Of a stretch of DNA of 64,000 bases, positions 221 to 64,000 are shown one piece after another. This DNA comes from Chiloscyllium plagiosum. Its lineage: Eukaryota. Every line of letters begins with the position of its first letter. Positions within the stretch are counted from its first letter, which is position 1. The translations under genes and the position numbers were made by a program. The DNA lies in NCBI RefSeq assembly GCF_004010195.1, contig NC_057717.1, forward strand, positions 106,881,945 through 106,945,944, written 5' to 3'. The notes under the pieces are model-generated. The model saw nothing but the letters and a program-made list of their open reading frames with translations. It searched no databases and had not been told where the DNA came from.

Positions 221-454
221 TCTTTTGACCTGGAAGCAGTTACAGAGTTGAGGGGTGCATTGATGTGAATGGAGGTCATACAAGCATTTGCAAACCTGTG
301 ACAGTTTTTATATCACAGCTTTCCTCAGGAAAGTGTGCTCAGGTACGGGTGGTATTTTGACCAGGAGAGGGGAAGAACGTTGTTACTGTGATGAAACTCT
401 GTGGGACAGGGTTAGTATCGTGACAGTGATTAAACTCTGTCTGGATGGAGGTAC

Positions 455-603
455 CTGAAGCTTTTGGAGAATGTGATTTGTTCGTCGATCAACCACGACT
501 AATGTCCGATCCTCACTGCCTGAAAGGACAAAGTGGTCATTGGCAGCGAGACACAGCACAGCGCTGGAGTGGAGCTTCCAACTGGACAACATTGGGTAAC
601 CAG
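455..603 (-). CDS. FBXW9: FBXW9 coding exon 6
   Basis: [50 protein letters not shown], 149 bp. Confidence 0.9.
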
Positions 604-3600
604 CTGCAAAACACAGGAACAAAGAACATTACAGCACAGGAACAAGCCCTTTGGCCCTCCAAACCTGCACTGATCCATATCCTTTATCTAAACCTGTTGT
701 CTATTTTCTAAGGGTCTGTATCCCTCTGCCCCCTGCCCATTCATGTATCTGCCTCGATGCATCTTAAATGACACTATCGTTCCTGCCTCTACCACCTCCA
801 TTGGTAAAGCATTCCAGGCACCCACCACCCTCTGCGTAAAGTACTTTCCACACATATCTCCCCTAAATGTTATCCCCTCTCACTTTGAACTCCTGACCCC
901 GAGTAATTGAGTCCCCCACTCTGGGAAAAAGCTTCTTGCTATCCACCCTGTCTATACCTCTCATGATTCCATCGACCTCAATCAGGTCTCCCCTCAACCT
1001 CCGTCTTTCTAATGAAAATAAACTTAATCTACTCAACCTCTCTTCATCGCTAGCACCTTCCATACCAGGCAACATCCTGGTGAACCACCTCTGCACCCTC
1101 TCCAAAGCATCCACACCCTTTTGGTAATGTGGCGACCAGAACTGTATGCTGTATTCCAAATGTGGCCAAACCAAAGTCCTGTACACCTGTAACATGACCT
1201 GCCAACTCTTGTACTCAATACCCCATCCGATGACGGAAAGCATGCCATATGCTTTCTTGACCACTCCACTGACCTGCGTCACCACCTTCAGGGGACAACG
1301 GACCTGAACACCCAGATCTCTCTGCACATCAACTTTCCCCAGGACTTTTCCATTTACTGCATAGTTTGCTCTCGAATTGCATCACATTTGCCCGAATTGA
1401 ACTCCATTTGCCATTTCTCCGCCCAACTCTCCAATCTATCCATATTCTGCTGCATTCTCTGACAGTCCCCTTCACTATCTGCTACTCCACCAATCTTAGT
1501 GTCATCTGCAGACTTGCTAATCAGACCAACTATACCTTCCTCCAGATCATTTATGTATATCACAAACGACAGTTTGATCCCAGCACAGATCCCTGTTGGA
1601 CACCACTGGTCACAGGTCTCCATTTTGAGAAACACCCTTCCACTACTACTCTCTGTCTCTTGTTGCCCAGTCAATTCTCTATCCATCTAGCTAGTACACC
1701 CTGGACCCCATATGACCTCACTTTCTCCATCAGCCTACCATAGGGAACCTTTTCACATGCCTTACTAAAGTCCACATATATGACATCTACATCCCTTCCT
1801 TCAACCAACGTTGTCACTTCCTCAAAGAATTCTATTAAGTTGGTAAGACATGACCTTCCCCACATAAACCCATGTTACTTATCACTGATAAGCCCATTTT
1901 CTTCCAAATGAGTATACATCCTATCCCTCAGTATCCTCTCCAGTAGCTTCCCCACCACTGACGTCAGGCTTACTGGTCTATAATTACCTAAATTATTCCT
2001 GTTACCCTTCTCAAACAAGGGGACAACATTAGCAATTCTCCAGTCCTCTGGGACCTCACTTGTGTTCAAGGAAGCTGCAAAGATATCTGTTAAGGCCCCA
2101 GCTATTTCCTCTCTCACTTCCTTCAATAACCTGGGATAAATCCCATCCAGACCTGGGGACTTGTCCACCTTAATGCCTTTTAGAATACCCAACACTTCCT
2201 CCCTCCTTATGCTGACTTGACCTACAGTAATCAAACATCTATCCCTCACCTCAACATCCATCATGTCCCTCTCCTTGGTGAATACCGATGCAAAGTACTT
2301 GTTAAGAATCTCACCCATTTTCTATGACTCCAGGCATATTTTTCCTCTTTTGTCCTTGAGTGGGCCAACCCTTTCTCTAGTTACCCTCTTGCTCCTTATA
2401 TATGAATAAAAGGCTTTGGGGTTTTCCTTAACCCTGTTTGCTAAAGATATCTCATGCCTCTTTTTAGCCCTCTTAATTTCTCATTTCAGATTGTTCCTAC
2501 ATTCCTGATATTCTCCCAAAGCTTCACCTTCAGTCACCGAGACCTTCTGTATACTCCCTTCTTCCTCTTAGCTAGTCTCTCAATTTCACCTGCCATCCAT
2601 GGTTCCATAATCTTGCCATTTCTATCCTTCATTCTCACAGGGCCATGTCTCTCCTGCACTCTAAGCAACCTCTCTTTAAAAGCTTATCAAATCTGGACTT
2701 ACCGTCAAACTGTTGCTCCCAATCCACATTCCCCAGCTCCTGCCAAATTTTGCTATAGTTGGCCTTCCCCAAATTTAGCACACTTTCTTTAGGACCACCC
2801 TCGCCTTTGTCAATGAGTATTCTAAAACTTATGCAAGTGTGATCACTATTACCAAAATAATCCCCTACTGAAACTTCAACCACCAGGCCAGGCTCATTCC
2901 CCAATCCCAGGTCCAGGGTGGCCCCTTCCCCTGAACTATTCCCATACTGCTCTAGAAAACCCTCCTGCTGCTCCTCACAAATTCTGCTCCATCCGGAACT
3001 CTAACACAAAGTGAATCCCAGTCAATGTTGGGAAAATTAAAATCTCCCATCACCACCACCCTGCTGCTCTGACATCTTTCCATATTTATACCTCTATCTC
3101 ACGCTCGCTGCTGGGACGCCTGTAGTACAGCCCCAACATTATTACCACATTCGATTTCTAAGCTCTGCCCAAATTGCCTCACTGCACGAGTCCTCCACAG
3201 CTGTGATATCCTCTCTGACCAGTCCTCCACCTCTTTTACGTCGCTCTCTATCCTGTCTGAAGCATCGATATCCTGGGATATTTAGTTGCCAATCATGCCC
3301 TTCCCTCAACCAAGTCTCAGTAATAGCAATAATATCATACTCACAGGTACTAATCCAAGCCCCAAATCCATCTGCCTTACCTGCTACACTTCTTGCATTA
3401 AAACAAATGCACCTCAGACCACCTGTCCCTTTGCGTTCATCATCATTGTTAAGAAAGCATATGGTGTTTTGGTTTTCATTAACAGGGGGATTCAGTTTAA
3501 GAGCCGCGAGGTTTTGCTATAGCTCTACAAGTCCCTGGTGAGACCACACTTGGAATATTGCATCTAGTTCTGGTCACTCTACTATAGGAAAGATACAGAG

Positions 3601-6600
3601 GTTTTGGAGAGGGTGCAAAGAAGGTTTCCCAGGATGCTGCCTGGACTGGAGGGTTTGCCGTATGAAGAAAGGTTGAATAAGTTCGGACTTTTCTCTCTGG
3701 AGAGGAGGAGGAAGAGAGGAGGAGGAAGAGAGGAGACCTTATTGAGGTGTACAAGATAATGAGAGGAATAGATAGAGTCAATAGCCAGAGATCTTTCCCC
3801 AGGGCAGGATGATTGGTACGAGGAGTCATAGTTTTAAGATATTAGGAGGAAGGTATAGAGGAGAGTTGTGAATGCATGCAATGTGTTGCCAGCGGTGGTG
3901 GTGGAAGCAGAGTCATTAGGGACATTTAAGCGACTGCTGGACATGCACATGGACAGCAGTGAATTGAGGGGTGTGTAGGTTAAGTGATTATATTCTACAT
4001 TAGGATTAAACCTCAGCACAACATCGTGGGCCTAAGGGCCTGTTCTGTGTTGTACTTTACTATGTTCTAGGTTATACCTGCTCCCAGCCTCCTCTTCCCC
4101 TTAGTCACACAGACTTCATTATCTAGTTCCTTACAGGCTTTAGTTAGTACCTCCTCCCTGTCCACTAACCACCTCATTTGGTTCCCATCCCCCTGCTACA
4201 TTAGTTTAAACCCTTCCCAATTACAATAGCAAAAACATCCCCAAGGACATTGATTCCAGTCCAGCCCAGGTGTAGACCATCCAATCTGTAATAGTCCCAC
4301 CTCCCCCAGAACCTGTCCCAATGTCCCAAAACTCTGAACCCCTCCCTCCTGCACCATCTCTCAGGAGGTAAACAGTCAAGAGGTGGAATTAAACAACACA
4401 GGAACCAACCTCAATCCACACTGTTCACAATGAATATGAGACTCCCTCTCTCTCGCTCTGAGGCAGAGCCAAGGAGGGAAAGTCACTGCACAGAGTCTGT
4501 GGGAGATGAAAAGGTCAAAGCTCTATCAGTGGGAATGGAACAGCAAGAGAAAGTGATTGGACTCAACATCATTCCCTCCCCCGAGGTACAGCTCCCCCCT
4601 CTCCTGGTGGATGTGACTCTCCCCAGGGTAAAGCTCCCCCCTCTCCTGGTGGATCTGACTCTCCCCAGGGTATAGCTCCCTCTCTCCTGATCCCTGTTCT
4701 ATGATGATCAGGCCCCCACTGTTCACACTTGGCCTGAATCTGAAGATCCCCATATCAAACAGAACGTGCTCGAGTCGGTGGTCTCACCTCGTGGGTCATA
4801 CAAGGTGACAGTCTTGTCATATGTTCCAGTAACCAGTACATCAGGCCGGTAAACCAGACAAAGCACAGCTGCCTTCCCCCTGTGGGAATAAAACTTCAGT
4901 CAATCACTGTACTGCTCCCGCTGTAACTGGGCAGCACTGTCCACCTCCTCCCCACGTACCAAGGACACCCCCCCACTCTCCTCCTCCCCCACCCCATATT
5001 GAGAGCAGCCCAGACTCAGTCACCCCTCTGCCCCCTCCCTGCAGATCCACAGTGTCAGACTGGAGGGCACCACAACTGGCATTTCCAATGCAGCCTCCGT
5101 AGAGGCACCGTGCAGCAAAGGGAGGGGGCCCTCAGGACGGTGGGGTTTCTCAGACCCCCATTCCACAGGTGCTGAGGGCACACAATAACCACCCCTGAGA
5201 GTCGGCAAAGATATCTGACATTTGGAAAGGATAAGCAGAAAAGGAACAGGAGGTGGGGCAGCTCAGATAGACAAAAATGAAACCAGAACAGCAACAAGAA
5301 ATAATTTTGGTTTGGAGAATTGAAATGTCGAATCAATTGGGTGGAGATGGGAAATATCAGAGGAAGTAGACACTAGTCAGAAGCAGCTTGTAGCCCCAAC
5401 TCCCCAACAGTGGCTCCACTCCACAACAGTTCAAACAGGAGACGCGCTCAGAATACATTCGGGAGTTTCTTAGAATAACACATTTGGGAACCAACCCAAG
5501 AATGGGATCATTTTTGTACTCAACAATTTGTAATGCTGCAAGATTAATTAACAATTTCGTAGGAAGAGTGATCATAACTTAATAAATTACACATTTACTT
5601 TCTGGGTGAGAAATCTGAGTCTAAAACGAGTGCTTTAAACTTAATTAAAAACTTTGTAAAGGTGTGAAGTTGGAGTTTGTTAAAGTGGACTGGGGAAATA
5701 GGTTACAGGTTAAGACAGTAGAGAAGCAGTGACAGACACTGAAGGAGATATGTCATAGCTCAACAAAAACATATTCTATTCAGAAGGAAAACCTCAATGA
5801 GGAGTGTGAACCATCCATGGTTGACTAAGGAAGCTGGCATCATGTCAGGCTTACAGAATACAGATACATGATGCAGAAATGAGTGTTTGGCAGAGGATTG
5901 GTAAAATTTTATAAAACAGCAAAGGATGGGTAAAAGAATAATAAAGAGGGAGAAATTGGAATATGAGAAATAATAAGCAGTATATAAAGAGACAGTAAAA
6001 CATTCTCCAGTACTCAAACGGTATTGGTTTATTTTGGCTTTCCCAACACATTAAGTAACTTTGAAAGGTTACTGAGAGAGATAAGGGCTCGTGGTGTCAG
6101 TGGTGGTTTATTAACATGGTTGAGAATTGATAAACTGACAGGAAACCAAGGGCTCGGTTAAAGGAATAACTGGTAAACTGTAACCAGGGGAGTGCTGCTG
6201 TGCCTTAACTATACACAATCTGTATTAATGACCTGCAGGTAAGGTCATAGAACACGGTCACTGTTGGTTAGTGATTCAAGTCAGACAGGAAAGCAAGTTG
6301 TGAGGCAGAACCAAAGTCTGTAAAGAGACACGGCCCGGTTGAGTGAGTGACAGGAGGTGTGTAACATGAGAATTTAGGAGGTTGTCCACTTTGGCAGGAA
6401 GAAGAGAAAAGCAGTATATTATTTAACTGGAGAGGGGTTGCAGAACTCTGAGCTACGGGGGAGCTGGGAGCCTGGGACAACAAGTCATTAAGACGGCACA
6501 TCGAAGTTTGGCCTTTATCACAGAAAGGATGGAAATGTAAAAGGCACATGACAGCAGCTTTAGGCCTTTTGAGCCCACCCCATCAGACAACTGATGGGCC

Positions 6601-9600
6601 GAATAGCCTACTCCTTCTCTGACCTGAACTCAGGGAACAACCTGCTCACCAACTGAGCGGGCCCAGTTTACTTCCAGCTGCCTTTGCAGGGCGACAAGAA
6701 TCATCACAAGAACACCTTCAGTTCGCGGGAGCAAATTACTGCAGCTGCTGGAATCTGTACCGACATCACAGCGTAGCATCCATGGAGAGACAGCAAGCTA
6801 ACATTTCACAGCTCTGACAAACAGTCATCTAGACTCGAAACAGGAGCTTGCTCGCTCTCCACACTTTCTGCCTGACCGGCTGTGATCTCCAGTATTTGTT
6901 GTTTTCATCACTTTCAGTTCTCCCTACTGGGTTGTGACAGAGGGGTCAGGGATGGAGACACGGTCAGCTTCCTGGTCAGACTGTGTTGATGCAGCAACTG
7001 TAAACCTGACTGACAGCACAGCTTCAGCCTCTCCCCCTTCAATGGAGGATGCTGGAGCGGTGCCCAGTGGGATCCTCAGCTGCCCTCGGGGAACAGCACG
7101 AAGGACAAGTCCCGTCAGGGCCATACAGCATCACCAGAGGGTGTCTGGGTCAATCCTCACACAATCCGCACCCCACCCCCTCCTGAAACTCATCACTGGG
7201 GCAAATGACTGAGGCACAGACGTTACCTGATCTCTCGCACTCCTGCCCCCTCTGAAGCCATGTCCCAGAGCTTGACGCTACTGTCCCAGGATCCAGAGCA
7301 GAGTATGTGGTCCTGTGCTGCAAGAGCCCAAACCCAACCCTGTAACAAGAGCAGAGGATCACACTGGTCAAGAACAGGCAGAGAACTTCACAACAGAATC
7401 TAGAACACACCTTTCCAGAGCATCCTTCATGACCTCCAAATGTCCCAAAGTGCTCAACAGCAGAAAGTGGTGCCCTGAAGTGTAGTCAAGGTTTGCACAG
7501 CAAGATCCCATTAACCAGAAGACATGCTTGGGAAATAGTTATGGGGCAGGACCGAGATGTCCCAATCGAGGTGACAGACATCACCTGTCTAATGCCTAGC
7601 AGCAACAGCAGCTTTTCTCTCACTAGCTGCAGGCCTGCTGTTCAGACGATGAACTAGCCCTGTGCCACCACCACCCTCAGCAGCTCACCCCGACACTGCT
7701 CTCCTCACCCTGTGTGTCCCCCGTGGTTGGTCTCCGAGAGTTTTCACCAGCACCTTTTCCCCATCCTGTCCTAAACGTCGCAGGTCCCAGATATTCACAT
7801 TCCGATCCCTGGATCCAGAAACACACAGCGAAGCATTCTGTACGACAGGAAGTAACAAAACGGTTACAATCTCAGCCATCAGCAGTTAGTCTGCCCCGGG
7901 ACGGCAAGGATTGGTACAGGCACCTTTATCATTTGTCATATACATAAATATTAAGTAGGTTTGGTAGAGTGGTTAATAGTGAAGAAGATGGTTGTAGGTT
8001 ACAGGAAGATACAGATGGGTTGGTCAGATGGACAGACCAATGACAGATAATATTTAACCTGATAACTACGAGGTGATACGCTTTGGAAGAAGAAACAAGA
8101 TGAGGGAGTATTTGATGAATAAGGACACTGGGTAACTTAGAGGAGCAGAGGGATCTCAGGGTAATTATTCATAGATCCCTGAAGTCAGCAGAGCACATGA
8201 ACAGGAGGGTTAAGGCGGCATATGGGACACTTGCTTTCATTTAGTCGTGGCGGAGAGTACTAAGAACAAGGATGTAATGCTGGAGTTGTACAGAGTGTTG
8301 GTCAGGCCACAGCTCAGTTAGTGTGTGTGTTTCTGGTCACCTCACTATAGGAAGGATGTGCTAGCATTAGAAGGGCTACAGGCAGACAGACAGGCAACCG
8401 GGGGGGGGGCACAGGGACAGGGACAGACAGCAGCCCGGGAGGCACAGGGACAGACAGACAGCCAGCCCGGGAGGCACAGGGACAGACGGACAGACAGCAG
8501 CCCGGGAGGCACAGGGACAGACAGACAGACAGCCCGGGAGGCACAGGGACAGACAGACAGACAGCAGCCCGGGAGGCACAGGGACAAACAGACAGACCGA
8601 TGCCGAGGCAAAGGGACAGACAGACCGGGAGGCAAAGGGACAGACAGACAGACAGCCCGGGAGGCACAGGGACAGACAGACAGCCCGGGAGACACAGGGA
8701 CAGACAGACAGACAGCAGCCCGGGAGGCACAGGGACAGACAGACAGACAGCCCGGGAGGCACAGGGACAGACAGACAGATAGCCCGGGAGGCACAGGGAC
8801 AGACAGACAGACAGCCCAGGAGGCACAGGGACAGACAGACAGACAGCAGCCCGGGAGACACAGGGACAGACAGACAAACCGCTCGAGAGGCACATGGACA
8901 GACAGACAGACAGCCCGGGAGGCACAGGGACAGACAGACAGACAGCAGCCCGGGAGGCACAGGAACAGACAGACAGACAGCCCGGGAGGCACAGGGACAG
9001 ACAGACAGACAGCCCGGGAGGCACAGGGACAGACAGGCAGCAGCCCGGGAGGCACAGGGACAGACAGACAGACCGCTGGCGAGGCACAGGGACAGACAGA
9101 CAGACAGACCGGGAGGCACAGGGACAGACAGACAGACAGCCCGGGAGGCACAGGGACAGACAGACAGCCCGGGAGACACAGGGACAGACAGACAGACAGA
9201 CAGACAGCAGCCCGGGAGGCACAGGGACAGACAGACAGGCAGGCACAGGGACAGACAGACAGGGAGGCACAGGGACAGGCAGACAGACAGCAGCCCGGGA
9301 GGCACAGGGACAGACAGCCAGCCCGGGAGGCACAGGGACAGATAGATAGACAGCCAGCCCGGGAGGCACAGGGACAGACAGCCAGCCCAGGAGGCACAGG
9401 GACCGACAGACAGACGGACCGACCGTGAGGCACGGGGGCAGACAGACAGACGGACTGACTGGGAGGCACGCGGGCAGACAGACAGACAGACCGAACGGGA
9501 GGCACGGGGGCAGACAGACAGACAGACCATGAGTCACGGGGCAGACAGACAGATGGGGAGGCACAGGGCGGGCAGACTGACACAAAGACCCTGCCCTGTG

Positions 9601-10433
9601 GACCCTGCAGTACTAATACAGTAGATTTGTCGGGATCACTTGCTACCAATTTACCTGAATCAACAAGACGGTGTCGACTGAGGCAAAATGTCCATCATTC
9701 AATGAGAAATGTTGAACCTTTGGATTACTAGTGGACCAAAGAGACAGATGCTCCTCAAGCTCAATACAAGCTGATGGCCAATCAAATTCCTTTCCTTTTA
9801 AAACAGAAACAGAATTAGAAAGAGACAGGTCTGACCAGAATCCAAACCACAGATCCAGCCTAAAACTCAACCACCCATTCACCCACTCTCTAACCGCAAC
9901 ACACATCTTGCCCTCATCCCCACCCAATCCCCCACAACAGTCGTGTCTCAGACAGGGACAGACCCAGACAGACAGAGACACAAACCTTCCAATACTGGGT
10001 AGCTCATCCCCAAGATCTTCTGGGCCCGGATTCTCCAAGTCACCTCATCAGTCAGGACGTACTGGAACGCTCGACAAACCAACGGCAACACTCCGAGCAC
10101 AAACCTGGCATCCAGGTAGGAGCAGATCTCCAGCACCAGCTCCCAGGGGAGGGACAACAGACCTGACTGATCAGTGTCCCCAGCCAGCACCTGGCTGGAA
10201 CGCAGTTTCACGTTCAAGTCTGATGCACTTGATTTGCTGATGCGAGTCTGGGTCTCGCTGCTTGGCTCTGGGGGACAGCTTTGGGGTCTGGGGCCAGACA
10301 TTTCAGGGTTCCACACCCGGTCCACATACTCCTGGGCCTGGAGTTCCAGCTCATCCTCCTGTTCTAGGTCAGACTCACCCTCCAGGGTATGATGGGGCTG
10401 GGTGCTCAGTCTATCATGAGACTCACTCGTCAT
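455..10433 (-). CDS. FBXW9: F-box/WD40 protein FBXW9, 5' part (3' exons lie beyond the left edge)
   Basis: Exons 10433-9986, 9794-9655, 7837-7709, 7339-7227, 4879-4788, 603-455 splice in frame. F-box [19 protein letters not shown]40 repeats [48 protein letters not shown]. Immediately downstream of TNPO2. Confidence 0.92.
617..4365 (-). mobile_element. CR1-type LINE (endonuclease plus RT, frameshifted), interrupted by a second CR1
   Basis: ORF fragments [52 protein letters not shown]. Confidence 0.9.
3446..4070 (+). mobile_element. CR1 LINE 3' fragment nested in the minus-strand CR1
   Basis: KKAYGVL..., cacttggaatattg, CR1-type 3' tail. Confidence 0.85.
4576..4690. repeat. Tandem repeat of 39 bp, about 3 copies
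   Basis: Repeated ctccccagggtanagctccccnctctcctggtggatntgact. Confidence 0.8.
4788..4879 (-). CDS. FBXW9: FBXW9 coding exon 5
   Basis: [30 protein letters not shown], 92 bp. Confidence 0.9.
5630..6620 (+). mobile_element. Degraded CR1-like LINE fragments
   Basis: Residual CR1-like segments (ccatggttgactaagga, gatgggccgaatagcct). Confidence 0.55.
7227..7339 (-). CDS. FBXW9: FBXW9 coding exon 4
   Basis: [37 protein letters not shown], 113 bp. Confidence 0.9.
7709..7837 (-). CDS. FBXW9: FBXW9 coding exon 3
   Basis: [19 protein letters not shown]...GTHR, 129 bp. Confidence 0.9.
7950..8378 (+). mobile_element. CR1 LINE RT fragment
   Basis: [15 protein letters not shown]; ggtcaggccacagct. Confidence 0.75.
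8379..9585. repeat. Minisatellite, unit about 28-40 bp [gcccgggaggcacagg(gaca)n]
   Basis: About 35 visible tandem units; gives long low-complexity ORFs. Confidence 0.95.
9655..9794 (-). CDS. FBXW9: FBXW9 coding exon 2
   Basis: [16 protein letters not shown]...[13 protein letters not shown], 140 bp. Confidence 0.9.
9986..10433 (-). CDS. FBXW9: FBXW9 first coding exon (acidic N-terminus plus F-box)
   Basis: ATG at 10433; exon acceptor at 10469; donor GAAG|GTTTGT. Confidence 0.88.
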
Positions 10434-11545
10434 AATTTCTTCACTGCTCCAGTCTCAGTGGAACACAAGCTACAAAAACAAACCGAACATTAATTCACTC
10501 GGTGAATCCTGGAAAGAAGCCACAGGTTAAAGTAACTCAGGCTGTAGAAAGAATCTTTCCGCTTTCTGGGGAATCTGCAAATAGGGAACACAGTGTCAAA
10601 ATAATTTAACAGGAACTCAGCAACAAGGAATTCCTTTTCTCAGAGGATGGATAGTCTTTGGAAATTTCAACCAACACGCAGCCGAGCCTTTTCCATTCAA
10701 CTGGAATGGAAACAGGTTTATGATTGTCAAAGAAGTCAATGGTTATGAGGGAGTAGGCGGGAGAATGGAGCGGAGGCCAGTGATGACCATATTGATTGAT
10801 GGAGCAGGCATGGGGGGTTTAATTGGTTCTTCCTGACTCCTCAGTGTGCGGTGTTATGGGAAATTGTTGAAACACTTGTTCACAAGTCATGTCATGGCAC
10901 ACTACATTTCATCAGCTTGACAAATCACAGCATGACAGCTTATCCTGGACGCTGAGAATTACCTGTCCTGCACAAAGTGAGGATATTTTCTAAGATCCAG
11001 ACTCAGGTACCTAGATTAAAAGCATTTTACCCACATTTTAAAAAGCAAATAGATATTTTGCTGCTTCATTGCATGCAAGATTGTGTGCGAATCAATGCAC
11101 AAAACATATTTAATGGAACATCCTACAAACCCATTGATGGGAGGAGAACGGGCAAGTCTTCACTTTTTAGACATCAGTTTCTTCTCTGCTCTCAGGGGAG
11201 AGATGTTTGATATTACGAATAAGTAAAGGTAGAATTAATTCAGAGTATGTGAATGGGTGGCTCAGCAACACACATTTAAACTAAATGATAAAATAATGAG
11301 AAACAACATGGAGAAAATAACAATCGACATAGTAGTGGGTTGTGATCCTGAACACACTGCCTAAAGGGGCTGTGAAAGCAGACACCATCAGAACTTTCAA
11401 AAAGGAACCAGATAAATGCAGAAAGGGAAAAATTTGTACGGCCTGGGGAAGAGAAACTGGACTCATTTCAGAATCAAAACAGGACAGTGACCTCTCCATG
11501 TCAGAAGCTACTTGCAGAGAAACTCAGTCCAATATAAATTAATTA

Positions 11546-20406: not shown

Positions 20407-48614
<28,208 letters not shown>

Positions 48615-49319: not shown

Positions 49320-50150
49320 CAACACCGTCCCCAATACCCCCCACCCCCGCGGGGCAGCCGCTCTGGGAGCAGGCCCCGCTCCGGGAATGGAGCCCGGGGC
49401 CTAAGGCCTGCACTCGGGCCCCATCAGCGCGGCTGGAAGTGGAGGAGAGCGCAGGCCGCAGCCTCGGGCTGGCGGAGGATCGGGATGCACCACCACCACC
49501 ACCACCACCACCCCCGGGGACTCGGGCCCTCCTCCATCCAGGCCCGGCGCCGCTCACTCACCGGCCGCAGGCCAAAGCCCCGGCGTCCTCTGATGGTCCC
49601 TCCCCACAATGGGCTGCTCACTGCCGCCGCCGCCGCCGCCGCCTTGACTCCGCCCCCTCCCGCTGACTCCGCCCCCTTCCCCGCGCGCACGCGCACAGAC
49701 AGCGACCGATCGGTGCCAACCTTCACGTCACCCGGTGCCGGGTGTCGTGGTCCCGCTCTATTCCCGTTACTCGTGTCCCGCTTTGTCCGCTCTCCCGCCC
49801 CCCCCGGTGTCGGGGTCCCACTCTATCCGTCCCCCTGTCTGATATCGCGGTTCGGCTCTGTCCCCGGTGCCCGGTATCACGGTCCCGCTCTACCCCCCCC
49901 CGTACCCGGTGTCAGGTCCCGCGGTGCCCGGCTCCGGGTTTAAATTCTCTCTGACCTATCGGAGTTGCTGCCCTGCTCACGTGATCAGGGCCCGCTTTTA
50001 CCCGGCGGGCTCTGCGCCCTGGACCATCGTGCCACGCGGAAGGTAAGTCGTCTCTCTTGGCCAGTGGTTACCATGGAGACGGGGCCTACTCTTGGGCCCC
50101 TAATTGAGAGAGAGTGTCTCAGAGTGAGCAGCAGGTAGGTAGGCGGTGGG
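49320..50150. promoter_or_regulatory. CpG island / TNPO2 promoter
   Basis: High GC and CpG density; GC boxes; TCACGTGA E-box at 49977-49984; X-box-like GTTACCATGGAGAC at 50067-50080. Confidence 0.8.
49562..49700 (-). other. TNPO2: Probable non-coding first exon of TNPO2
   Basis: Donor CCG|GTGAGT at 49562/49561 inside the CpG island; GGC repeat; TSS is approximate. Confidence 0.6.
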
Positions 50151-50379: not shown

Positions 50380-51806
50380 GATGGTTGAGTATGGTTGCCA
50401 TTACAAAAGAGAAAGTGCTAGAAAAGCTAAAAGGTCTTAAAATTGATAAATCTCCTGGCCCTGATGGGTTACATCCTAGAGTTCTCAGGGAGGTGGCTGA
50501 GGAAATAGCGGAGGTGTTGGTTGACATCTTTCAAGAGTCACTGGAGTCAGGGAAAGTCCCGGATGATTGGAAGATCGCTGTTGTAACCCCCTTGTTCAAG
50601 AAAGGATCAAGACAAAAGATGGAAAATTATAGGCCAATTAGCCTAACCTCAGTTGTTGGTAAAATTCTAGAATCCATCATTAAGGATGAGGTTTCTAAAT
50701 TCTTGGAAGAGCAGGGTCGGATTAGAACAAGTCAACATGGATGTAGTAAGGGGAGGTCGTGCCTGACAAACCTGTTAGAATTCTTTGAAGAGGTGACAAG
50801 TAGATTAGACCGGAGAAACCCAGTGGATGTGGTCTACTTACACTTCCAAAAGGCCTTTGAAAAGGTGCCACACGGGAGGCTGCTGAGCAAGATGAGGGCC
50901 CATGGTGTTTAAGGTGAGCTACTGGTATGGATAGAGGATTGGCTGTCTGACAGGAGGCAGAGAGTTGGGATAAAAGGTTCTTTTTCAGAATGGCAGCCGG
51001 TGANNNNNNNNNNNNNNNNNNNNNNNNNNNNNNNNNNNNNNNNNNNNNNNNNNNNNNNNNNNNNNNNNNNNNNNNNNNNNNNNNNNNNNNNNNNNNNNNN
51101 NNNNNNNNNNNNNNNNNNNNNNNNNNNNNNNNNNNNNNNNNNNNNNNNNNNNNNNNNNNNNNNNNNNNNNNNNNNNNNNNNNNNNNNNNNNNNNNNNNNN
51201 NNNNNNNNNNNNNNNNNNNNNNNNNNNNNNNNNNNNNNNNNNNNNNNNNNNNNNNNNNNNNNNNNNNNNNNNNNNNNNNNNNNNNNNNNNNNNNNNNNNN
51301 NNNNNNNNNNNNNNNNNNNNNNNNNNNNNNNNNNNNNNNNNNNNNNNNNNNNNNNNNNNNNNNNNNNNNNNNNNNNNNNNNNNNNNNNNNNNNNNNNNNN
51401 NNNNNNNNNNNNNNNNNNNNNNNNNNNNNNNNNNNNNNNNNNNNNNNNNNNNNNNNNNNNNACACTAGGAAATTGTTTCCATTAGGCGAGGAGACTAGGA
51501 CCCCGTGGACACAGCCTTAGAATTAGAGGGGGTAAATTCAGAACAGAAATGCGGAGACATTTCTTCAGCCAGAGAGTGGTGGGCCTGTGGAATTCATTGC
51601 CACAGAGTGCAGGTGGAGTCTGGGATGCTAAATGTCTTGAAGGCAGAAATTAATAAATTCTTGATGTCACAAGGAATTAAGGGCTACGGGGAGAATGCGG
51701 GTAAGTGGAGTTGAAATGCCCATCAGCCATGATTGAATGGCGGAGTGGACTCAATAGGCCGAATGGCCTTACTTCCGCTTCTATGTCTTATGGTCTTATG
51801 GTCTTA
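50380..51806 (+). mobile_element. Young CR1 LINE spanning an assembly gap
   Basis: [30 protein letters not shown], (tatggtct)n-like tail. Confidence 0.9.
51004..51461. other. Assembly gap
   Basis: N run. Confidence 1.
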
Positions 51807-52364: not shown

Positions 52365-54527
52365 TTGAGAAGATTGAGCAGGTTGAGGTTCTAGATGTAG
52401 GTTTGCTCGCTGAGCTGGAAGGTTCATTTTCAAACATTTTGTCACCATACTAGGTAGCGTCATCAGTGAGCCTCTGGATGAAGCACTGGTGGCATAGCCC
52501 ACTTTCTATTTATGAGTTTAGGTTTCCTTGTGTTGGTGATGTAATTTCCTGTTCTTTTTCTCAGGGGGCCGTAGATGGAATCCAAGTCAATTTGTTTGTT
52601 GAAGGAGTTCCAGTTGGATTGCCATGCTTCTAGGGATTCCTGTGCGTGTCTCTATTTTGCTTGTCCTAGGATGGATGTGGTGTCCCAGTCAAAGTGGTGT
52701 CCTTCCTCATCTCTATGTGAGGATACTAATGAGAGTGGGTCATGTCTTTTGGTGGCTAGTTGATGTTCATGGATCCTGGTGGCTAGTTTTCTGCCTAAGT
52801 CATTTCATAGGTGGCATTCTGTTGGATGGCATTGGTTTCTCATTTTCAGGCCAGTTTTAGCGTATTGCCCCCATTGGTCCTGTTTTGAGAAGATTTGTAG
52901 CTCAAGTTGAGCTTCTGGATATAGGTTTGCTCGCTGAGCTGGAAGGTTCATTTTCAAAAAAAAACTTCAGAAATCTGGAGAAATAAATAAGACTGACTTC
53001 CAAAAATTGAAAACAGATGGATCCAACACACCACCACCTATGGATTACCCAAAATTCACAAACCAGGAGCCCTCTTCAGACCCATAGTCTCACTACCTGG
53101 AATATCAATTTACAGATTGGCCAAGGAACTACACCAAAGACTAAAACACTTAGTAGAAGGCTCACATCACTCCATCCAAGAGTTCCTGAAGACCAAAGAC
53201 ACCAAGCTAGAAGAGGATGAAATAATGGTCTCCTTTGATGTAACAGCCCTGGTCACATCCGTCAACATCAACCTGGCCAAGGAAACGCTGACAACATTGT
53301 TAGAAGAACCAAAGACACATACACCAAACACCACTAACTTCATCAGCAAGGACAATATCGTCATGCTAGTGTACCTATGCCTTACCACCCACTTCACCTT
53401 CAACAACAAAACCTACAAACAAATCAACGGAACATCCATGGGGTCTCCGTTATCAGGGTTCTTAGCAGAGGCAGTAATGCAGAGACTTGAACAAACAGCT
53501 CTGCCAACCATCCAACCCAAATTTGGGTCCGCTACGTAGATGACACCTTCGTCATCACGAAACAAAACAAATTAGAGGAAACCTTCAAGACCATCAATAA
53601 TACCCTTACTGGCATAAAATTCACCAAAGAGGAAAATCACAACAAACTGCCATTCCTAGATGTTACAGTACAGTGAACAGCCAATGGGAAACTTCAAACC
53701 AGTGTCTACAGGAAAACAACACAGATGGACCAAATATTAAACTACAGAAGCTATCTTCCCAACACCCACAAATGAAGCTGCATTAGAACATTATTTCAAT
53801 AAGCGACTACACAGAGCAGAGGAAAATCACCTATACAGCCTGTTCAAAAAGAACAATACCCAATGAACATAGTCTGCCAATATCTCAGCAACAAATCCTA
53901 ACAAGCAAACAATACCCGTCCAGAAACCCTAGCTACTCACCCCTATATCAAAGACATCTTGGAAATGACTGCCAGACTACTCAGACCTCTTGGCATCATG
54001 GTAGCCCACAAACCCAGCAACACATTAAAACAGAAGCTAATGAACTTGAAAGACCCAATACAGACAACAAGCAAAACTAATGTCATTTACAAGAACTGTA
54101 ACAAACACTACATTGGACAAATAGGCAGAAAACTAGCCACCAGGATACATGAACGTCAACTGGCTACAAAAAGACATGACTCACTCTCACTAGTTTCCTT
54201 ACATACAGATGAGGAAGGACACCACTTCAACTGGGACAACACATTCATCCTAGGACAAGCGAGACAGAAACACGCTCGGGAATCCCTAGAAGCATGGCAT
54301 TCCAACCGGAACTCTTATTAACAAACACATTGACTTGGTTCCCATTTACCACCCCCTGAGAAAAGAAACAGGAAATGACATCACCAACCCAAGGAAGCCT
54401 AAACACATAAATAGAAAGTGGGCTATGCCATCAGTGCTTCATCCAGAGACTCACTGATGATGTGAACTAGTATGGTGACAAAACATTTGAAAACAAACCT
54501 TCCAGCACAGCAAGCAAACCTACATCC
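52365..54527 (+). mobile_element. Penelope-like retroelement (RT plus GIY-YIG), degraded, with an inverted copy of its 3' end upstream
   Basis: MVSFDVTAL, FTFNNKTYKQINGTSMGSPLS, (F)WVRYVDDTF, NVIYK..HYIGQ; 52365-52795 is the reverse complement of about 54130-54527. Confidence 0.88.
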
Positions 54528-56211: not shown

Positions 56212-56217
56212 TTTATT
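56212..56217 (-). terminator. Candidate polyadenylation signal of the IL27RA-like gene
   Basis: Minus-strand AATAAA followed by a GT/T-rich tract (tgtacatttattgttgatgt), about 2 kb after the stop. Confidence 0.4.
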
Positions 56218-57704: not shown

Positions 57705-58180
57705 AGAGTAGGAGAATCAACGTTTCAAACATAAGCTGAGCACAGGGGCTGAGAGATAAATGGGAGGGGGTGGGGCCTCGGGGGAAGGTAGCTAGGAATG
57801 CGATAGATAGAAGAAGGTGAGAGGGTGATGGTCATAGGTCGGAGTTCGGGGTGGAGCAGATAAGTGGGAAGGAAGATAGACAAGTGGGAAGGAAGATAGA
57901 CAGGTGGGACAGCTTCCTCATCTCCCCTCCCCCACCTCATCCCAGATCCAACCCTCCAACTTGCACCGCCCTCTTGAACAGTCCTACCTGTCCATTTTCC
58001 TTCCAACCTATCTGCTCCACCCTCCACTCCAACCTATTATCATTATCCCTTCACCTTCATCTAACTATCACAAACCTAGCTACCTCCTCCCAGCCCCAGC
58101 CCCATCCCATTTATCTGACCGGCTGTGCTTTTCCAGCAGCATACATTTTGACAGATATCCAGCATCTGCAGTCCTCACTT
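57705..58180. mobile_element. Same short repeat family inserted in the IL27RA-like 3'UTR
   Basis: ggagaatcaacgtttc...ccagcatctgcagtcctcactt ends; internal inverted purine/pyrimidine arms. Confidence 0.6.
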
Positions 58181-58194
58181 TATCCTGCTGAAGT

Positions 58195-58584
58195 TTAATG
58201 ATCGTCCTCAGTTCCCATCCACACCTTCCTGTCTGCTAACTGCCATTCATTATTAAGCACATCTGCTTCTGATGGCAAGAAGTGTTTCTCGTAACCAATT
58301 GAGGTGAGGGGTTTCACCATTAATGTTGTGCTGGTTTCTGGCTCTTCCACAAGTTTCTTTTCCAAACAAGTGGAGGCCTCTGGAGGTGCAGAATGACAAC
58401 TCATCCAGTAAGTATCTTCTGAGCTGCTGGGTCTGATGTCTTCTGCCAGAGTGGAATTGTTGTTTGTTGTGAATGGAACTTCAACCTTGATGTCAGTTTC
58501 AATCTGTAAGTCAGTTTCAATCTCTTCCAACTCATCAATTACTGGCTCCACTGGTACCTCACGATAGCTCGGAGGGTAATCATA
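58195..58584 (-). CDS. IL27RA: IL27RA-like type I cytokine receptor, last coding exon (cytoplasmic tail)
   Basis: Acceptor ttcgcag|TAT; YDYPPSYREVPVEPVIDELEEIE...SIGYEKHFLPSEAD...*. GYEKHFLP is the IL27RA/WSX-1 tyrosine motif (recalled). Confidence 0.78.
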   Translation of the reverse strand, partial: YDYPPSYREVPVEPVIDELEEIETDLQIETDIKVEVPFTTNNNSTLAEDIRPSSSEDTYWMSCHSAPPEASTCLEKKLVEEPETSTTLMVKPLTSIGYEKHFLPSEADVLNNEWQLADRKVWMGTEDDH

Positions 58585-59651
58585 CTGCGAATAGATAATC
58601 AATAATGATCAGTACTTCAAGTCAATGTTAGTTTCTCTTCTATGTCAAAAAATATAACTTATTCCATATATTTCGCAAAACTGCATTTTGAAGCTGTTTA
58701 AGTTTCAGTGTGGGGTTCAGGGATGGGGTTTAGTCTTGGGAATCCAAGTTGAGAGTCCAGGGTGGGGCTGTAGCATGAGGGTACAGGGGTGTAGGAAAGA
58801 TTCTATAAGGATAGTAAATATGTTGTAGATTTCAAATCCTTAGAATCAAAAGTGTTTTGGCGTCACAATATCAGAAATAATAGTTGATGCTTTCTCAGTT
58901 TGTGCTTCCCTATTATCAAGCGTGTGTTTTCTTGAAAGTGCTCTATATTCATCTCCTGAAGGTGGAGGCTCCCACTGAAACACAGGCTGTAAGTGTACAT
59001 GTCACACTACACGTTACCCATTCTCCCATAGAACCAAACATTACGCCATGTTCTGTTTGCAGTCTAAGTTGGTTCTACATAGTGTCAAACAAGCGAAAAT
59101 CAGGCCTGATTGACTAACAGCAGTTGATACACTTGATTCTCCAATCGAAGTTCAATTACTCATCACATCAGGTATACAGCTGGATTGATCTACAACAAGA
59201 ACATCAAAAACTTATATTTCTATAGCACTTTAAATGTCAATGCTGGAGCGTTATCAAGAGATAATCTGAGAGTGAGCCACAAAAGGCCATATTAGTGCAG
59301 CTAACCAAAAACTTAATTCAACAGATCGGATTTAAGAAATATTTTATAAGGGTAGTAAAGGAGAGTTGGAGAGGATTGTGGATAAAACTCTGGAGCTCAG
59401 GACTGAAATGCGCTCACCAGTTGTGGACTAATTAGAATCAGAAATCTGCAAGAGAAATTTAAAAAGTGCTGAGATGTGGGGAGGGTTATAAAGCTGCAGG
59501 AGGTAATGGGCACTGGGAGAAGGATGGCCATGGCAGAATTTGCACATGTGGATGAGAATTTTAAAATCACTGCATTGCCTGACTGGAAGTCAGTGTAGAT
59601 CAACAGGCTTGGGGTAAATGGAATGGTGTGTTAGGATACAACTGTCATTTT

Positions 59652-59956
59652 TAGATTAGATTACTTACAGTGTGGAAACAGGCCCTTCGGCCCAACAAGT
59701 CCACACCGACCCGCCGAAGTGTAACCCATCCAGACCCATTCTCCTACATTTACCCCTTCACCTATCACTACGGGCAATTTAGCATGGCCAATTCACCTAA
59801 CCTGCACATTTTTGGATTGTGGGAGGAAACCCACGCACCCGGAGGAAACCCACGCAGACACTGGGAGAATGCAAACTCCACACAGTCAGACGCCTGAGGC
59901 GGGAATTGAACCCAGGTCTCTGGCGCTGTGAGGCAGCAGTGCTAACCACTGCACCA
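59652..59956 (-). mobile_element. HE1-like SINE
   Basis: Reverse copy with (tagat)n tail. Confidence 0.85.
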
Positions 59957-61327
59957 TTTGGTGCAGATGCATCAAAATTGCTGTTGGGAAGCTCCAGGAT
60001 CTTGACCCAGTGTCAGTGTCAGACTGGTCAGATGTTTCCAAGTCAGGATGATGAGAGGCTTAGTGATGAACTTTCAGGTGGTGGGGTTCCCCATGTATCT
60101 GCTGCCCTTGTCATTTAGATTGTTAGAGATTGTGGGTTTAGAAGAAGCTGCTGAAGGAGCCTTGGTGAATTTCTGGAGTGCATTTGTAAATAGTACACAC
60201 TGTGCATTGGTCGTGAGGGAGTGAATGTTTGTGGATGTGGTGCCAATCAAGTTTGCTGCTTTGTCTGGGATGATGTCAGGCATCTTGAGTGTTGTTGGAG
60301 CTGCATTCATCCATCACTCTCCTGGTTTGTGTTTTTATCGATGGTGGACAGGCTTTGTGGAAACATAAGGTGAGGCAGTGTAAGGGTCCTCGACTCTGAC
60401 ATACTCTTGTAGCCACAGTTTTAATATGGCTTGCTATGCATCTAGTAATGGGGGGGGGGGGAGGGAGGAGGTGGATGTGCGTGCGTGTGTGTAAGTTCTG
60501 TGCATGTCAATCAGTATGCTGATCATGGCATCCAGAAATCATTGCCGCACATGGACTCTGGTGGTCCATGCAGCCAGAAGATTAGAGAGATCGCTGATAG
60601 CTAGTACAGTTCAGTTTCTGAACAATGAAAACTTCCAGAACATTGATTCCAGGGTAATGCCAATGATGGTAATGCCATTGAGTGTCAAGATGTAATGATT
60701 AGATTCTCTTTTGTTGGAAAGCTTATTCCAGTCAAAAAGAAGGACTCGATGGAAATGATGAGCTCTTCTTATTTAACAAAGGTGGTCAGGAGAGTATCCA
60801 ATCAAAATTAGGTGTAAAAAGTGGTGAAACCTCGTGGTATGTCAGAGGCTTAGAAAGTTTTAGGAACCAGCAGCGATGAGTATGAAGCAAATAAAGAAGG
60901 ACAAATTGATTACGAAAATAAATCGGCCAGAACTGTGAAAGCAAACAGCAAGTGCATCTACGGGCAAATAAAAAGAAAGCGAATAGCTAAATAAGTGTGG
61001 GACCCTTGGAGGATGCAACTGGGAAATCCATAACAAAAAATAGAGATAATTTAAACCAATAGTTTGCATTGGTCTTCACATCCTAAATGTAAGTAATATG
61101 CTAATGGGGTGGGGAAGATATCGTAACAGTCTCTTATCATGAGGGACAAGTATTTAATAAGTAATAAGTGTAAAGGCAGACAGGTTGCCAGACCTGATGA
61201 TCTGTTGTCAAGGAGAGGTAGTAAAGATACAGAGAATGTGATGCATTGTGTTCAGTTCTGGGCTTTTCATTGTCTTTACTTCTTACACTGTTAGAAAAAG
61301 TTTGATTAAAGGCATGAACATCCTTAC

Positions 61328-61381
61328 CTGCTCGTGCCCAACATTGCTGTTCCTTGGATCCGGAACTTTTTGGCAACACCA
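61328..61381 (-). CDS. IL27RA: IL27RA-like box1 exon (54 bp)
   Basis: cctcag|TGG...CAG|gtaagg encodes WCCQKVPDPRNSNVGHEQ (box1 VPDP-NS) and joins in phase 0 to the exon at 58584. Confidence 0.75.
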
Positions 61382-61969
61382 CTGAGGTAAGTAGAATGAG
61401 CTGCAGCTTTGTATTCTGAAAGGCATGCAGAAGGAAGAGATATTCAGAACCTTGAGTCTGTTCCATCATTTATCTGCCTTGGTTCCATAATCCTTTGTAT
61501 TTTTGAATCTCTACATTCTACTGATGTCAGTCTTAAAATGTTTATTTGACCCACAGCCTTTACAGTCTTTTACAGATTTCCACTCCCTCTTGTATGAAGA
61601 AATGCTTCCTGATGTTTCCTTGAAGGATCCAGTTCAAATATTAAAATTATGCACTCCCTTGTTCTAACTTCTTCTGATAGGGAAATGGACCACTTAGAAT
61701 TATCAGGAATATGCAGCATTGAAATAGACCATTCAGCCCAGCCAGTCCCTGCCAGTGTTTATGCTTCACATGATCTCCTCTCGCCCAATCAGAATGTTCT
61801 CTCCTCTTTTATCCTGCATGCCTTTCCCTAGCTCACCTATTCACTTTGGTGACTCCCTGTGGTAATTATTCCCACATTCTCACCATTCTGGCTGAAGAGA
61901 ATGTGTTTAAAATCTCCTCTTGTATACAATCTACTGAGCATCATTTAATATAGCAAATCGCAAAGTCGT

Positions 61970-63597
61970 AAAGAACATAGAACAATACAGCACAGAGCAG
62001 CCCCTTTGGCCATCGATGTTGCACCGACCTGTGAACTATTCTCGGCTCATCCCCCTACACTATCCCAAAATCATCCATGTGCTTTTCTAAGGATTGTTTA
62101 AATCTCCCTAATGTGGCTGAGTTGACTACATTAGCAGATAGGGCATTCCATGCCCTTAGCACTGTCTGTATAAAGAACCTGCCTCTGACATCTGTCTTAA
62201 ATCTATCACCCCTCAAATTGTAGTTATGCCCTCTCATACATGTTGATGTCATCATCCTAGGAAAAAAGACTCTAACTGTCTACCCTATCTAATCTTCTGA
62301 TCATCTTGTATGCCTCTATCAAATCCCCTCTTCGCCCTCTTCTTGCCAATGAGAACAGGCTCAAGTCTCTCAGCCTTTCTTATAAGACCTTCCCTCCAGT
62401 CCAGGCAACATCTTGGTAAATCTCCTCTGCACCTTTTCCAATGCTTCCACATCCTTCCTGAAATATGGGGACCAGAACTGTACACAATATTCAAAGTGTG
62501 GCCGCACCAGCGTTTTGTATAGTTGCAACATTATATTGCGGTTCCGGAACTCAATCCCTCTACCAATGAATCCTAACACACCGTATGCCTTCTTAACAGC
62601 ACTATCCACCTGGGTGGAAACCTTCAGGGATCTATGTACTTGGATTCCAAGATCCCTCTGCACATCCATCCTACCAAGAATCTTTACATCGACCCAGTAC
62701 TCTGCCTTCCTGTTATTCTTCCCAAAGTGTATCACCTCACATTTAGCTGCATTGAACTACATGTACAGCATAGAGATGTGCAGCACGGAAACAGACCCTT
62801 CGGTCCAACCCGTCCATGCTGACCAGATATCCCAACCCAATCTAGTCCCACCTGCCAGGACTCGGCCCATATCCCTCCAAACCCTTCCTATTCATTATAC
62901 CCATCCAGATGCCTTTTAAGTGTTGCAATTGTACCAGCCTCCACCACTTCCTCTGGCAGCCCATTCCACACACATACCACTCTCTGTGTGAAAAAGTTGC
63001 CCCTTAGTTCTCTTTTATATCTTTCCCCTCTCACCCTAAACCTATGCCCTCTAGTTCTGGACTCCCCCATCCTAGGCAAAAGACCTTGTTTATTTACCTT
63101 ATCCATGCCCTTCATGATTTTATAAACTTCTATAAGATCACCCCTTAGCCTTCGACGCTCCAGGGAAAACAGCCTCTCCCTATCAACATCTCCCTATAGC
63201 TCAAATCCTCCATCCCTGGCAATATCTTTGTAAATCTTTTCTGAAACCTTTCAAGTTTCACAACATCATCCCAATAGGAAGGAGACCAGAATTGCATGCA
63301 ATATTCCAACAGTAGCCTAACCACTATCCTGTACAGCCGCAACATGACCTCCCAACTCCTGTACTCAATACTCTGACAAATAAAGGAAAGCATACCAAGC
63401 GCCATCTTCACTATCCTATCTACCTGTGACTCCACTTTCAAGGAGCTATGAACCTGCACTCCAAGGTCTCTTTGTTCAGCAACACTCCCCAGGACCTTAC
63501 CATTTAGTGTATAAGTCCTGCTCTGATTTGCCTTCCCAAAATGCAGCACCTCGCATTTATCTGAATTAAACTCCATCTGCCACTCCTTAGCCCAACT
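61970..63597 (-). mobile_element. Two adjacent CR1 3' fragments (61970-62760, 62765-63597)
   Basis: LVRPHFEYCVQFWSPY; WAKEWQMEFNSDKCEVLHFG. Confidence 0.88.
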
Positions 63598-64000
63598 CCT
63601 TAAAAGTTTCACACAGTCAGTGACATGGGTGGTTGGAAAATATATTGTCATTTTTGGTGATGTAGTACACCACATTTTACTGGGCCAGAGATCATTTACT
63701 TAAGATTATGAAACTGATGAGCTAACCTGGCAAATTTAAACCTTCTCTACAATGTCTCCTCAGAAACTCAGTGCAGTACCTGTGCAATATCATCTGCAAA
63801 TTAGCAAGATGTTGATGGAGATTGCTGTACTACAAGACAGCAGTGAACCCTCTTGCTAATTAAACCAAACACTCAGAAAAGCTCACCTCGCCTCATAATC
63901 TGTTAAAGTATGAGTGACAGAGAACTCCCAAATTCCACTATTCAAAGAATATAATATCAGTTTATTCTTTAACTCCTAAAAGTGAACACTAAACAGCAAC

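What the first reader, a model, noticed from the sequence alone, without database searches (positions are those of the whole stretch)
58195..61381. Hidden 3' end of an IL27RA-like cytokine receptor next to TNPO2
Seen: a 54-bp exon (61381-61328) that the ORF track does not show in the correct frame encodes WCCQKVPDPRNSNVGHEQ. It splices in phase 0 to a 129-aa terminal exon containing GYEKHFLP. Established (recalled): VPDP-NS is the JAK-binding box1 of gp130-family receptors, and GYEKHFLP is the STAT-docking tyrosine motif of IL27RA/WSX-1, which sits on human 19p13 like TNPO2 and FBXW9. Inference: this is a fast-evolving cartilaginous-fish IL27RA, a gene that annotation can easily miss or mislabel (for example as IL12RB2-like).
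Basis: partly seen in the sequence, partly recalled or inferred. Interest (0 to 1): 0.72.

Follow-up and report, generated by a model that had tools for sequence, protein, structure and literature searches.

The report
Bamboo shark IL-27 receptor alpha end
These two exons are the end of the bamboo shark gene for the IL-27 receptor alpha chain, an immune signalling gene that databases mislabel but that published work has already identified correctly, so the finding is real but ordinary.

Summary
Real, correctly interpreted, already known. The two minus-strand exons encode, letter for letter, the C-terminus of RefSeq XP_043551077.1 (Chiloscyllium plagiosum, labelled 'IL12RB2-like'). A 2025 paper already lists that accession as bamboo shark IL27RA and gives a separate IL12RB2 on chr11; cartilaginous-fish IL27RA was reported in 2018. 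One correction: the box1 exon is most likely 88 bp (61415-61328), not 54 bp. My ectodomain-only tree puts the shark/ray clade with bony-vertebrate IL27RA (100/98); AU tests reject grouping with IL12RB2 (p=0.009) or IL23R (p=0.0001). The YE[KR]H[FY] motif is in 21 of 21 elasmobranch orthologues, 6 of 6 named bony IL27RA, 0 of 37 named IL12RB2. Junction support from reads is indirect (one contig). Likely role: site-2 IL-27 receptor pairing with gp130, JAK on box1, STAT1 on the tail tyrosine (inferred from human). Side result: an N-terminal Ig-like domain is present in chimaera and several ray-finned IL27RAs but absent from shark/ray and tetrapod models, suggesting repeated loss.

The parts
61328..61415 (-).
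   Evidence: identical stretch in XP_043551077.1; conserved in relatives
61346..61366 (-). Box1 motif VPDPRNS (PxP JAK-FERM site)
   Evidence: sequence; human IL-27R has KVPDPANS and box1 PxP binds JAK FERM per PMC7444064 passages
58585..61327 (-). Last intron, 2743 bp, GT-AG, phase 0; contains a high-copy SINE-like repeat at about 59650-59950
   Evidence: repeat pile-up; spliced contig inferred
58195..58584 (-). Coding part of terminal exon, 129 aa plus stop; acidic box2-like stretch near its start, low-complexity Ser/Thr/Pro/Glu tail
   Evidence: a contig of run X2 ends exactly at 58584
58273..58296 (-). GYEKHFLP, equivalent of human IL-27Ralpha Y613 STAT1-docking motif
   Evidence: human ICD sequence in PMC7444064 places Y613 in SGYEKHFLP; Y613F cuts pSTAT1 to 20% (PMC8099432)
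20482..50000 (-). Neighbour: transportin gene (TNPO2 by recalled synteny; TNPO1/2 not resolved by a call), CpG island at about 49500-50000
   Evidence: exon 29649-29428 is 68 of 74 identical to transportin-1; exon list and CpG profile
383..10454 (-). Neighbour: FBXW9
   Evidence: ORF 10454-9951 is 100% identical over 89% to C. plagiosum FBXW9 on a contig of the same length (107,641,581) as XP_043551077.1

Best explanation
The exons encode the cytoplasmic tail of the elasmobranch IL27RA (WSX-1/TCCR) orthologue, a type I membrane receptor of about 690-720 aa: signal peptide, cytokine-binding module with WSxWS, three FNIII domains, TM helix, box1, tail with one conserved tyrosine. Shown: exon structure, identity with the RefSeq model, clade, motif conservation. 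Inferred from the human receptor: it binds p28:EBI3 at site 2 through its first two FNIII domains while gp130 binds site 3 through its Ig domain; JAK sits on box1; phosphorylation of the GYEKHF tyrosine recruits STAT1 and gives sustained STAT1 signalling (T-bet, IL-10/Tr1 programmes).
For: Identity with XP_043551077.1, named IL27RA in PMC12284397 supplement. Ectodomain-only ML tree of 61 hand-picked proteins: 10 elasmobranch rows + Callorhinchus (100/99) sit in one clade with 6 of 6 named bony IL27RA (100/98), apart from IL12RB2 (100/100) and IL23R (100/98). AU rejects the IL12RB2 grouping (p=0.0087) and IL23R grouping (p=9.5e-5, simpler model). Tail motif 21/21, 6/6, 0/37; it is the only tail tyrosine shared by sharks and rays. 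No N-terminal Ig domain in elasmobranch models, which an IL12RB2/IL23R-type site-3 receptor needs. Ligand subunit p28 exists in cartilaginous fish (PMC6238376). TYK2, ATG4D, S1PR5, S1PR2, PDE4A lie within about 1.3 Mb on the same chromosome.
Against: Best single-sequence hits are IL12RB2 and gp130, not IL27RA. The ectodomain is outside the window; the same-species RefSeq model lacks signal peptide and WSxWS module, so architecture comes from congeners 88-94% identical. My tree holds no shark IL12RB2 and no human IL27RA. The splice joint itself was not among the rows shown, and 3 of 4 runs gave no sign of it. No ligand binding or signalling was tested.
Confidence: 0.96

Rival explanations
1. 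It is an IL12RB2 (or second IL12RB2 copy), as NCBI names it, signalling for IL-12 with IL12RB1 through STAT4.
For: NCBI names; top PDB hit IL12RB2; box1 context resembles IL12RB2 box1.
Against: AU p=0.0087; tail motif absent from 37 of 37 named IL12RB2 (some of these are partial); no Ig D1; tail about 155-165 aa against 214-217 in three IL12RB2; a separate IL12RB2 lies beside IL23R on chr11.
Confidence: 0.015
2. It is an IL27RA orthologue by descent but serves another or additional ligand in sharks (for example p35:EBI3 or a p28 complex with a different beta chain) or pairs with one of the extra shark gp130-like chains.
For: Cartilaginous fish have three gp130 copies (PMC6238376); the ectodomain is only about 30-34% identical to bony IL27RA; extra tail tyrosines exist in carpet sharks.
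Against: p28 and EBI3 orthologues are reported in cartilaginous fish; domain layout matches the mammalian site-2 receptor; extra tyrosines are not conserved in rays.
Confidence: 0.15
3. The locus in this species is a truncated or non-functional copy, since the RefSeq model is only 502 aa and lacks the ligand-binding module.
For: XP_043551077.1 starts with about 60 residues that do not align with relatives and has no WSxWS.
Against: Intact frames and splice sites in the window; full-length 691-718 aa models in C. punctatum and Hemiscyllium at 93-94% identity; the model's coordinates overlap the PDE4A model, which points to a mis-built 5' end.
Confidence: 0.03

Closest known systems
XP_043551077.1, Chiloscyllium plagiosum 'IL12RB2-like' = Chi.pla_IL27RA of PMC12284397
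   Different: Nothing in the window; the RefSeq model's N-terminus looks mis-predicted.
Human IL27RA (WSX-1, Q6UWB1)
   Same: Box1 (KVPDPANS vs KVPDPRNS), GYEKHFLP, no N-terminal Ig domain, three membrane-proximal FNIII domains.
   Different: Shark tail about 155-165 aa against 98; carpet sharks carry 4 extra tail tyrosines after box1 that rays lack.
Callorhinchus milii IL27RA (XP_007909110.1) and ray-finned 'il12rb2l'
   Same: Same clade and tail motif.
   Different: They carry an N-terminal Ig-like D1 domain that elasmobranch models lack.
IL12RB2 / IL23R
   Same: Sister subfamily; WSxWS, FNIII array, similar box1.
   Different: Have Ig D1 for site 3, longer tails without the YEKHF motif, tandem locus on another chromosome.

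Membership tests
IL27RA | Groups with bony-vertebrate IL27RA in a tree | tested here: met
   100/98 on ectodomain columns only, tail motif excluded
IL27RA | C-terminal [GD]YE[KR]HF STAT1 tyrosine motif | tested here: met
   58296-58273; 21/21 elasmobranch, 6/6 named IL27RA, 0/37 named IL12RB2
IL27RA | Box1 PxP after the TM helix | tested here: met
   VPDP at 61366-61355, about 20 residues after the TM of XP_043551077.1
IL27RA | Cytokine-binding module with WSxWS plus three FNIII domains | tested here: inconclusive
   Outside the window; present in the congener P0001 (LWSDWS at 205, 4 fn3 Pfam stretches), missing from the same-species RefSeq model
IL27RA | No N-terminal Ig-like D1 (true of the mammalian protein) | tested here: met
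   26-65 residues before the first module cysteine in all full-length elasmobranch models; no D1 HMM hit under E 0.3. Not a family-wide feature: chimaera and some ray-finned members have D1
IL27RA | Lies in the paralogon segment of human 19p13 (TYK2, PDE4A, S1PR2/5, ATG4D, FBXW9) | tested here: met
   Paper table S3.5; FBXW9 in window; human map positions are recalled
IL27RA | Binds p28:EBI3 at site 2 and signals with gp130 to STAT1 | not testable with these tools
   No shark p28/EBI3 sequence in session; needs binding and signalling assays
IL12RB2 | Groups with IL12RB2 | tested here: not met
   AU p=0.0087
IL12RB2 | N-terminal Ig-like D1 for site 3 | tested here: not met
   (orthologues)
IL12RB2 | Tandem with IL23R | tested here: not met
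   Neighbours are a transportin gene and FBXW9 here; the IL23R-IL12RB2 pair is on chr11
IL23R | Groups with IL23R | tested here: not met
   AU p=9.5e-5 under LG+G4 quick tree; the mixture-model test did not finish

The most novel reading that the evidence does not exclude
The ancestral jawed-vertebrate IL27RA carried an N-terminal Ig-like D1 like its sisters IL12RB2, IL23R and gp130; it survives in chimaera, bichir, several teleost-like proteins and (as a partial model) coelacanth, and was lost independently in sharks/rays and in tetrapods (probably again in some teleosts). Sharks and mammals thus converged on a 'site-2-only' IL-27 receptor, while the D1-bearing forms may still engage site 3 and signal without gp130.
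Probability: 0.6. Interest if true: 0.4.

Novelty: already known. Interest (0 to 1): 0.15.

Why it matters
As found, little: it confirms a published assignment and shows that NCBI's 'IL12RB2-like' / 'IL6RB-like' / 'il12rb2l' labels in some 20 sharks and rays hide IL27RA, which matters for anyone counting T-helper pathway genes in cartilaginous fish. It also shows the STAT1 tyrosine motif has been kept since the shark-human split. The side observation on repeated loss of the Ig domain, if confirmed in genomes, would give a natural test of why site-2 receptors shed D1 and whether D1-bearing IL27RA can bind site 3.

Tried and rejected
No genome is held for this window, so upstream exons could not be read. 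Pfam found nothing useful on the two exons alone. Run search listed no holder on record as RNA. Of 4 runs laid, X14 (about 2% read) had no depth on either coding exon, X1 gave only unspliced pieces, X5 only a terminal-exon piece; repeats crowded the joint table (15 rows shown, 207 hidden). A first transportin check used a wrong frame and found nothing. The mixture-model AU test for IL23R did not finish. A single-sequence fold of the Callorhinchus protein was unusable (mean pLDDT 36.5) and is not used. The YREV tyrosine as a SOCS3/SHP2 site was considered and dropped: not conserved beyond carpet sharks. Earlier scan notes: nothing found.

Full report
Observation. 61381-61328 on the minus strand reads WCCQKVPDPRNSNVGHEQ and ends at CAG|GTAAGG; the next exon begins at 58584 in phase 0 and reads 129 residues to a stop at 58197-58195, with GYEKHFLP at 58296-58273. 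Of 7 AG sites examined upstream of the donor, two have good pyrimidine tracts: 61381 (13 of 17) and 61415 (14 of 17). The 61415 site gives an 88-bp exon that adds IQSCSSFYLPQ. These residues are in the RefSeq protein of the same sequence and a like stretch precedes the WCC motif in 21 of 21 elasmobranch orthologues, one per species, so 88 bp is the better call. An alternative acceptor at 61381 is not excluded but would change the phase of the upstream intron.

Identity. The terminal exon found 2 proteins among 392 candidates; their clusters hold 7 members from Chiloscyllium, Hemiscyllium, Rhincodon and Stegostoma, named 'IL12RB2-like', 'il12rb 2a, like' or hypothetical. One, XP_043551077.1 of C. 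plagiosum, ends in the two window translations joined, letter for letter. The window's FBXW9 exon is 100% identical to C. plagiosum FBXW9 on a contig of the same length. So the gene is annotated, under a wrong name. That model is only 502 aa, lacks signal peptide and WSxWS module and starts with about 60 residues unlike relatives; its coordinates overlap the PDE4A model. The congener P0001 (691 aa) shows the whole layout: signal peptide, cytokine-binding module with LWSDWS, three FNIII domains, TM helix at about 515-533, box1, tail.

Prior literature. [quoted passage not shown] PMC6238376 (2018; passages and section 19 read) reports a cartilaginous-fish IL27Ralpha orthologue (BPP 1.00, UB 97%) and a p28 orthologue; its figures and supplements were not seen. 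PMC12162339 (passages) names a Callorhinchus transcript as the oldest WSX-1 homologue. The finding is therefore known.

Independent test of orthology. Single-sequence scores favour IL12RB2 (156 bits) and gp130 (145) over IL27RA (107) in the PDB, which explains the label. I picked by hand 61 of the roughly 250 proteins then held (isoforms, fragments and non-receptor FNIII proteins left out) and built a tree on ectodomain columns only (P0001 residues 26-508; 481 of 819 columns), so the tail motif could not drive it. The 10 elasmobranch rows and Callorhinchus form a clade (100/99) inside a clade (100/98) with all 6 named bony IL27RA (coelacanth, frog, turtle, alligator, two marsupials) and Polypterus 'il12rb2l'; IL12RB2 (100/100) and IL23R-like rows (100/98) form the sister group. 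Forcing the 11 chondrichthyan rows with the 13 IL12RB2 rows is rejected (p-AU 0.0087), with the 6 IL23R rows likewise (9.5e-5, LG+G4 quick tree); unnamed rows were assigned to these groups after seeing the tree. Limits: no shark IL12RB2 and no human IL27RA were in the set; one Narcine 'IL12RB2-like' fell with IL23R. The motif YE[KR]H[FY] occurs in 21 of 21 elasmobranch orthologues, 6 of 6 named bony IL27RA and 0 of 37 named bony IL12RB2, a few of them partial. Shark branches are not unusually long within the family (about 1.5 from the IL27RA node, against 1.9 marsupial, 1.1 turtle).

Neighbourhood. On the minus strand the order is receptor, transportin gene (exons about 47300-20500, CpG island 49500-50000), FBXW9. 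Whether the transportin is TNPO2 rather than TNPO1 was not settled by a call (68 of 74 identical to TNPO1 in one exon; TNPO2 beside FBXW9 on human 19p13 is recalled). Receptor and FBXW9 share the same longest-contig length in 6 of the 7 elasmobranchs for which both values were listed (Mustelus differs, its FBXW9 being on a 48-kb contig). TYK2, ATG4D, S1PR5, S1PR2 and PDE4A lie at 105.7-107.4 Mb of the same chromosome; that their human orthologues are on 19p13 is recalled.

Expression. Evidence is thin. In run X2 (RNA status a guess, different species label from the best DNA holders) a 559-nt contig of depth 3.3 lies on 58089-58584 with 1 mismatch and stops exactly at the acceptor, leaving 62 letters; mean depth in the bin 61326-61476 is 1.35, equal to 3.3 x 62/151 (54 letters would give 1.18), with zero in both flanking bins. 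The joint row itself was not displayed. The other 3 runs gave no junction evidence.

Mechanism. Shown: tail anatomy and conservation. From human work: IL-27Ralpha D1-D2 FNIII binds p28 and EBI3 at site 2 and the gp130 Ig domain binds site 3 (PMC9142143, PMC9597551; passages); box1 PxP binds the JAK FERM domain (PMC7444064, passages); Y613F leaves 80% of pSTAT3 but 20% of pSTAT1 (PMC8099432, passages), and counting in the printed human tail puts Y613 in SGYEKHFLP. Inferred: the shark chain does the same with shark p28:EBI3 and a gp130. The GYEKH tyrosine is the only tail tyrosine common to sharks and rays; the extra ones in carpet sharks are lineage-specific.

Side result. Before the first module cysteine, full-length elasmobranch models have 26-65 residues, a signal peptide only, including two proteins from sequencing-run contigs that cluster with skate (of 49 cluster members examined, 12 had no hit to the first module domain and 4 start within it). 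Callorhinchus has 110 residues, Polypterus 117 and five unnamed motif-bearing proteins 92-131. A profile of these 7 N-termini matches the D1 profile of 28 IL12RB2/IL23R/gp130/CSF3R-type proteins (HHalign 94%, E 9e-8), against 1.7% for elasmobranch N-termini; the 32-residue start of the coelacanth model matches the end of that domain (E 1e-4 among 20 rows). Tetrapod rows and five other fish-like rows lack it. Four of the 7 D1 rows were in the tree; three were assigned by tail motif only. The simplest reading is an ancestral D1 lost at least twice. It rests on gene models, not genomes. Searches showed no paper on it, but the library lacks most subscription journals; PMC9597551 notes a parallel loss in EBI3.

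Verdict. Real, rightly named, already in print; exon boundary corrected; interest low, with a modest evolutionary lead.

Noticed in passing
P0073, P0087, P0101, P0165, P0074 N-termini vs elasmobranch orthologues: Ig-like D1 present in chimaera, bichir, some unnamed fish-like IL27RA and partly in the coelacanth model; absent from shark/ray and tetrapod models: likely repeated loss.
   Followed up: partly
XP_043551077.1 (P0004) residues 1-60: RefSeq model of this gene has an aberrant N-terminus, lacks the WSxWS module, and its coordinates overlap the PDE4A model; needs re-annotation.
   Followed up: partly
P0242/P0083 (Narcine bancroftii 'IL12RB2-like', about 800-890 aa): Groups with IL23R (100/98) and has FNIII extensions; probably another mislabel, a long-form IL23R.
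   Followed up: partly
NCBI names: The same orthologue is named IL12RB2-like, IL6RB-like, il12rb 2a-like or (great white shark only) IL27RA-like across about 20 species.
   Followed up: yes
window 8314-9694: Long low-complexity tandem array (GACAGACA-rich units) inside an FBXW9 intron giving long spurious ORFs on both strands.
   Followed up: no
window 33887-34359 and 51004-51461: Two assembly gaps (runs of N), the second inside a LINE-like reverse transcriptase fragment.
   Followed up: no
window 52997-54321 (+): Fragments of a Penelope-like retroelement (RT and GIY-YIG-like ORF pieces, by recall) between the receptor's 3' end and the transportin promoter; CR1/L2-like fragments at 61950-63700.
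   Followed up: no
window 58154-58186: A short high-copy repeat begins about 10 bases after the stop codon; 3' UTR end not determined (nearest ATTAAA at 57543, AATAAA at 56217).
   Followed up: no
window 58513-58530: A 6-residue duplication (IETDLQ/IETDIK) in the tail, shared by this species and Hemiscyllium but not C. punctatum.
   Followed up: no
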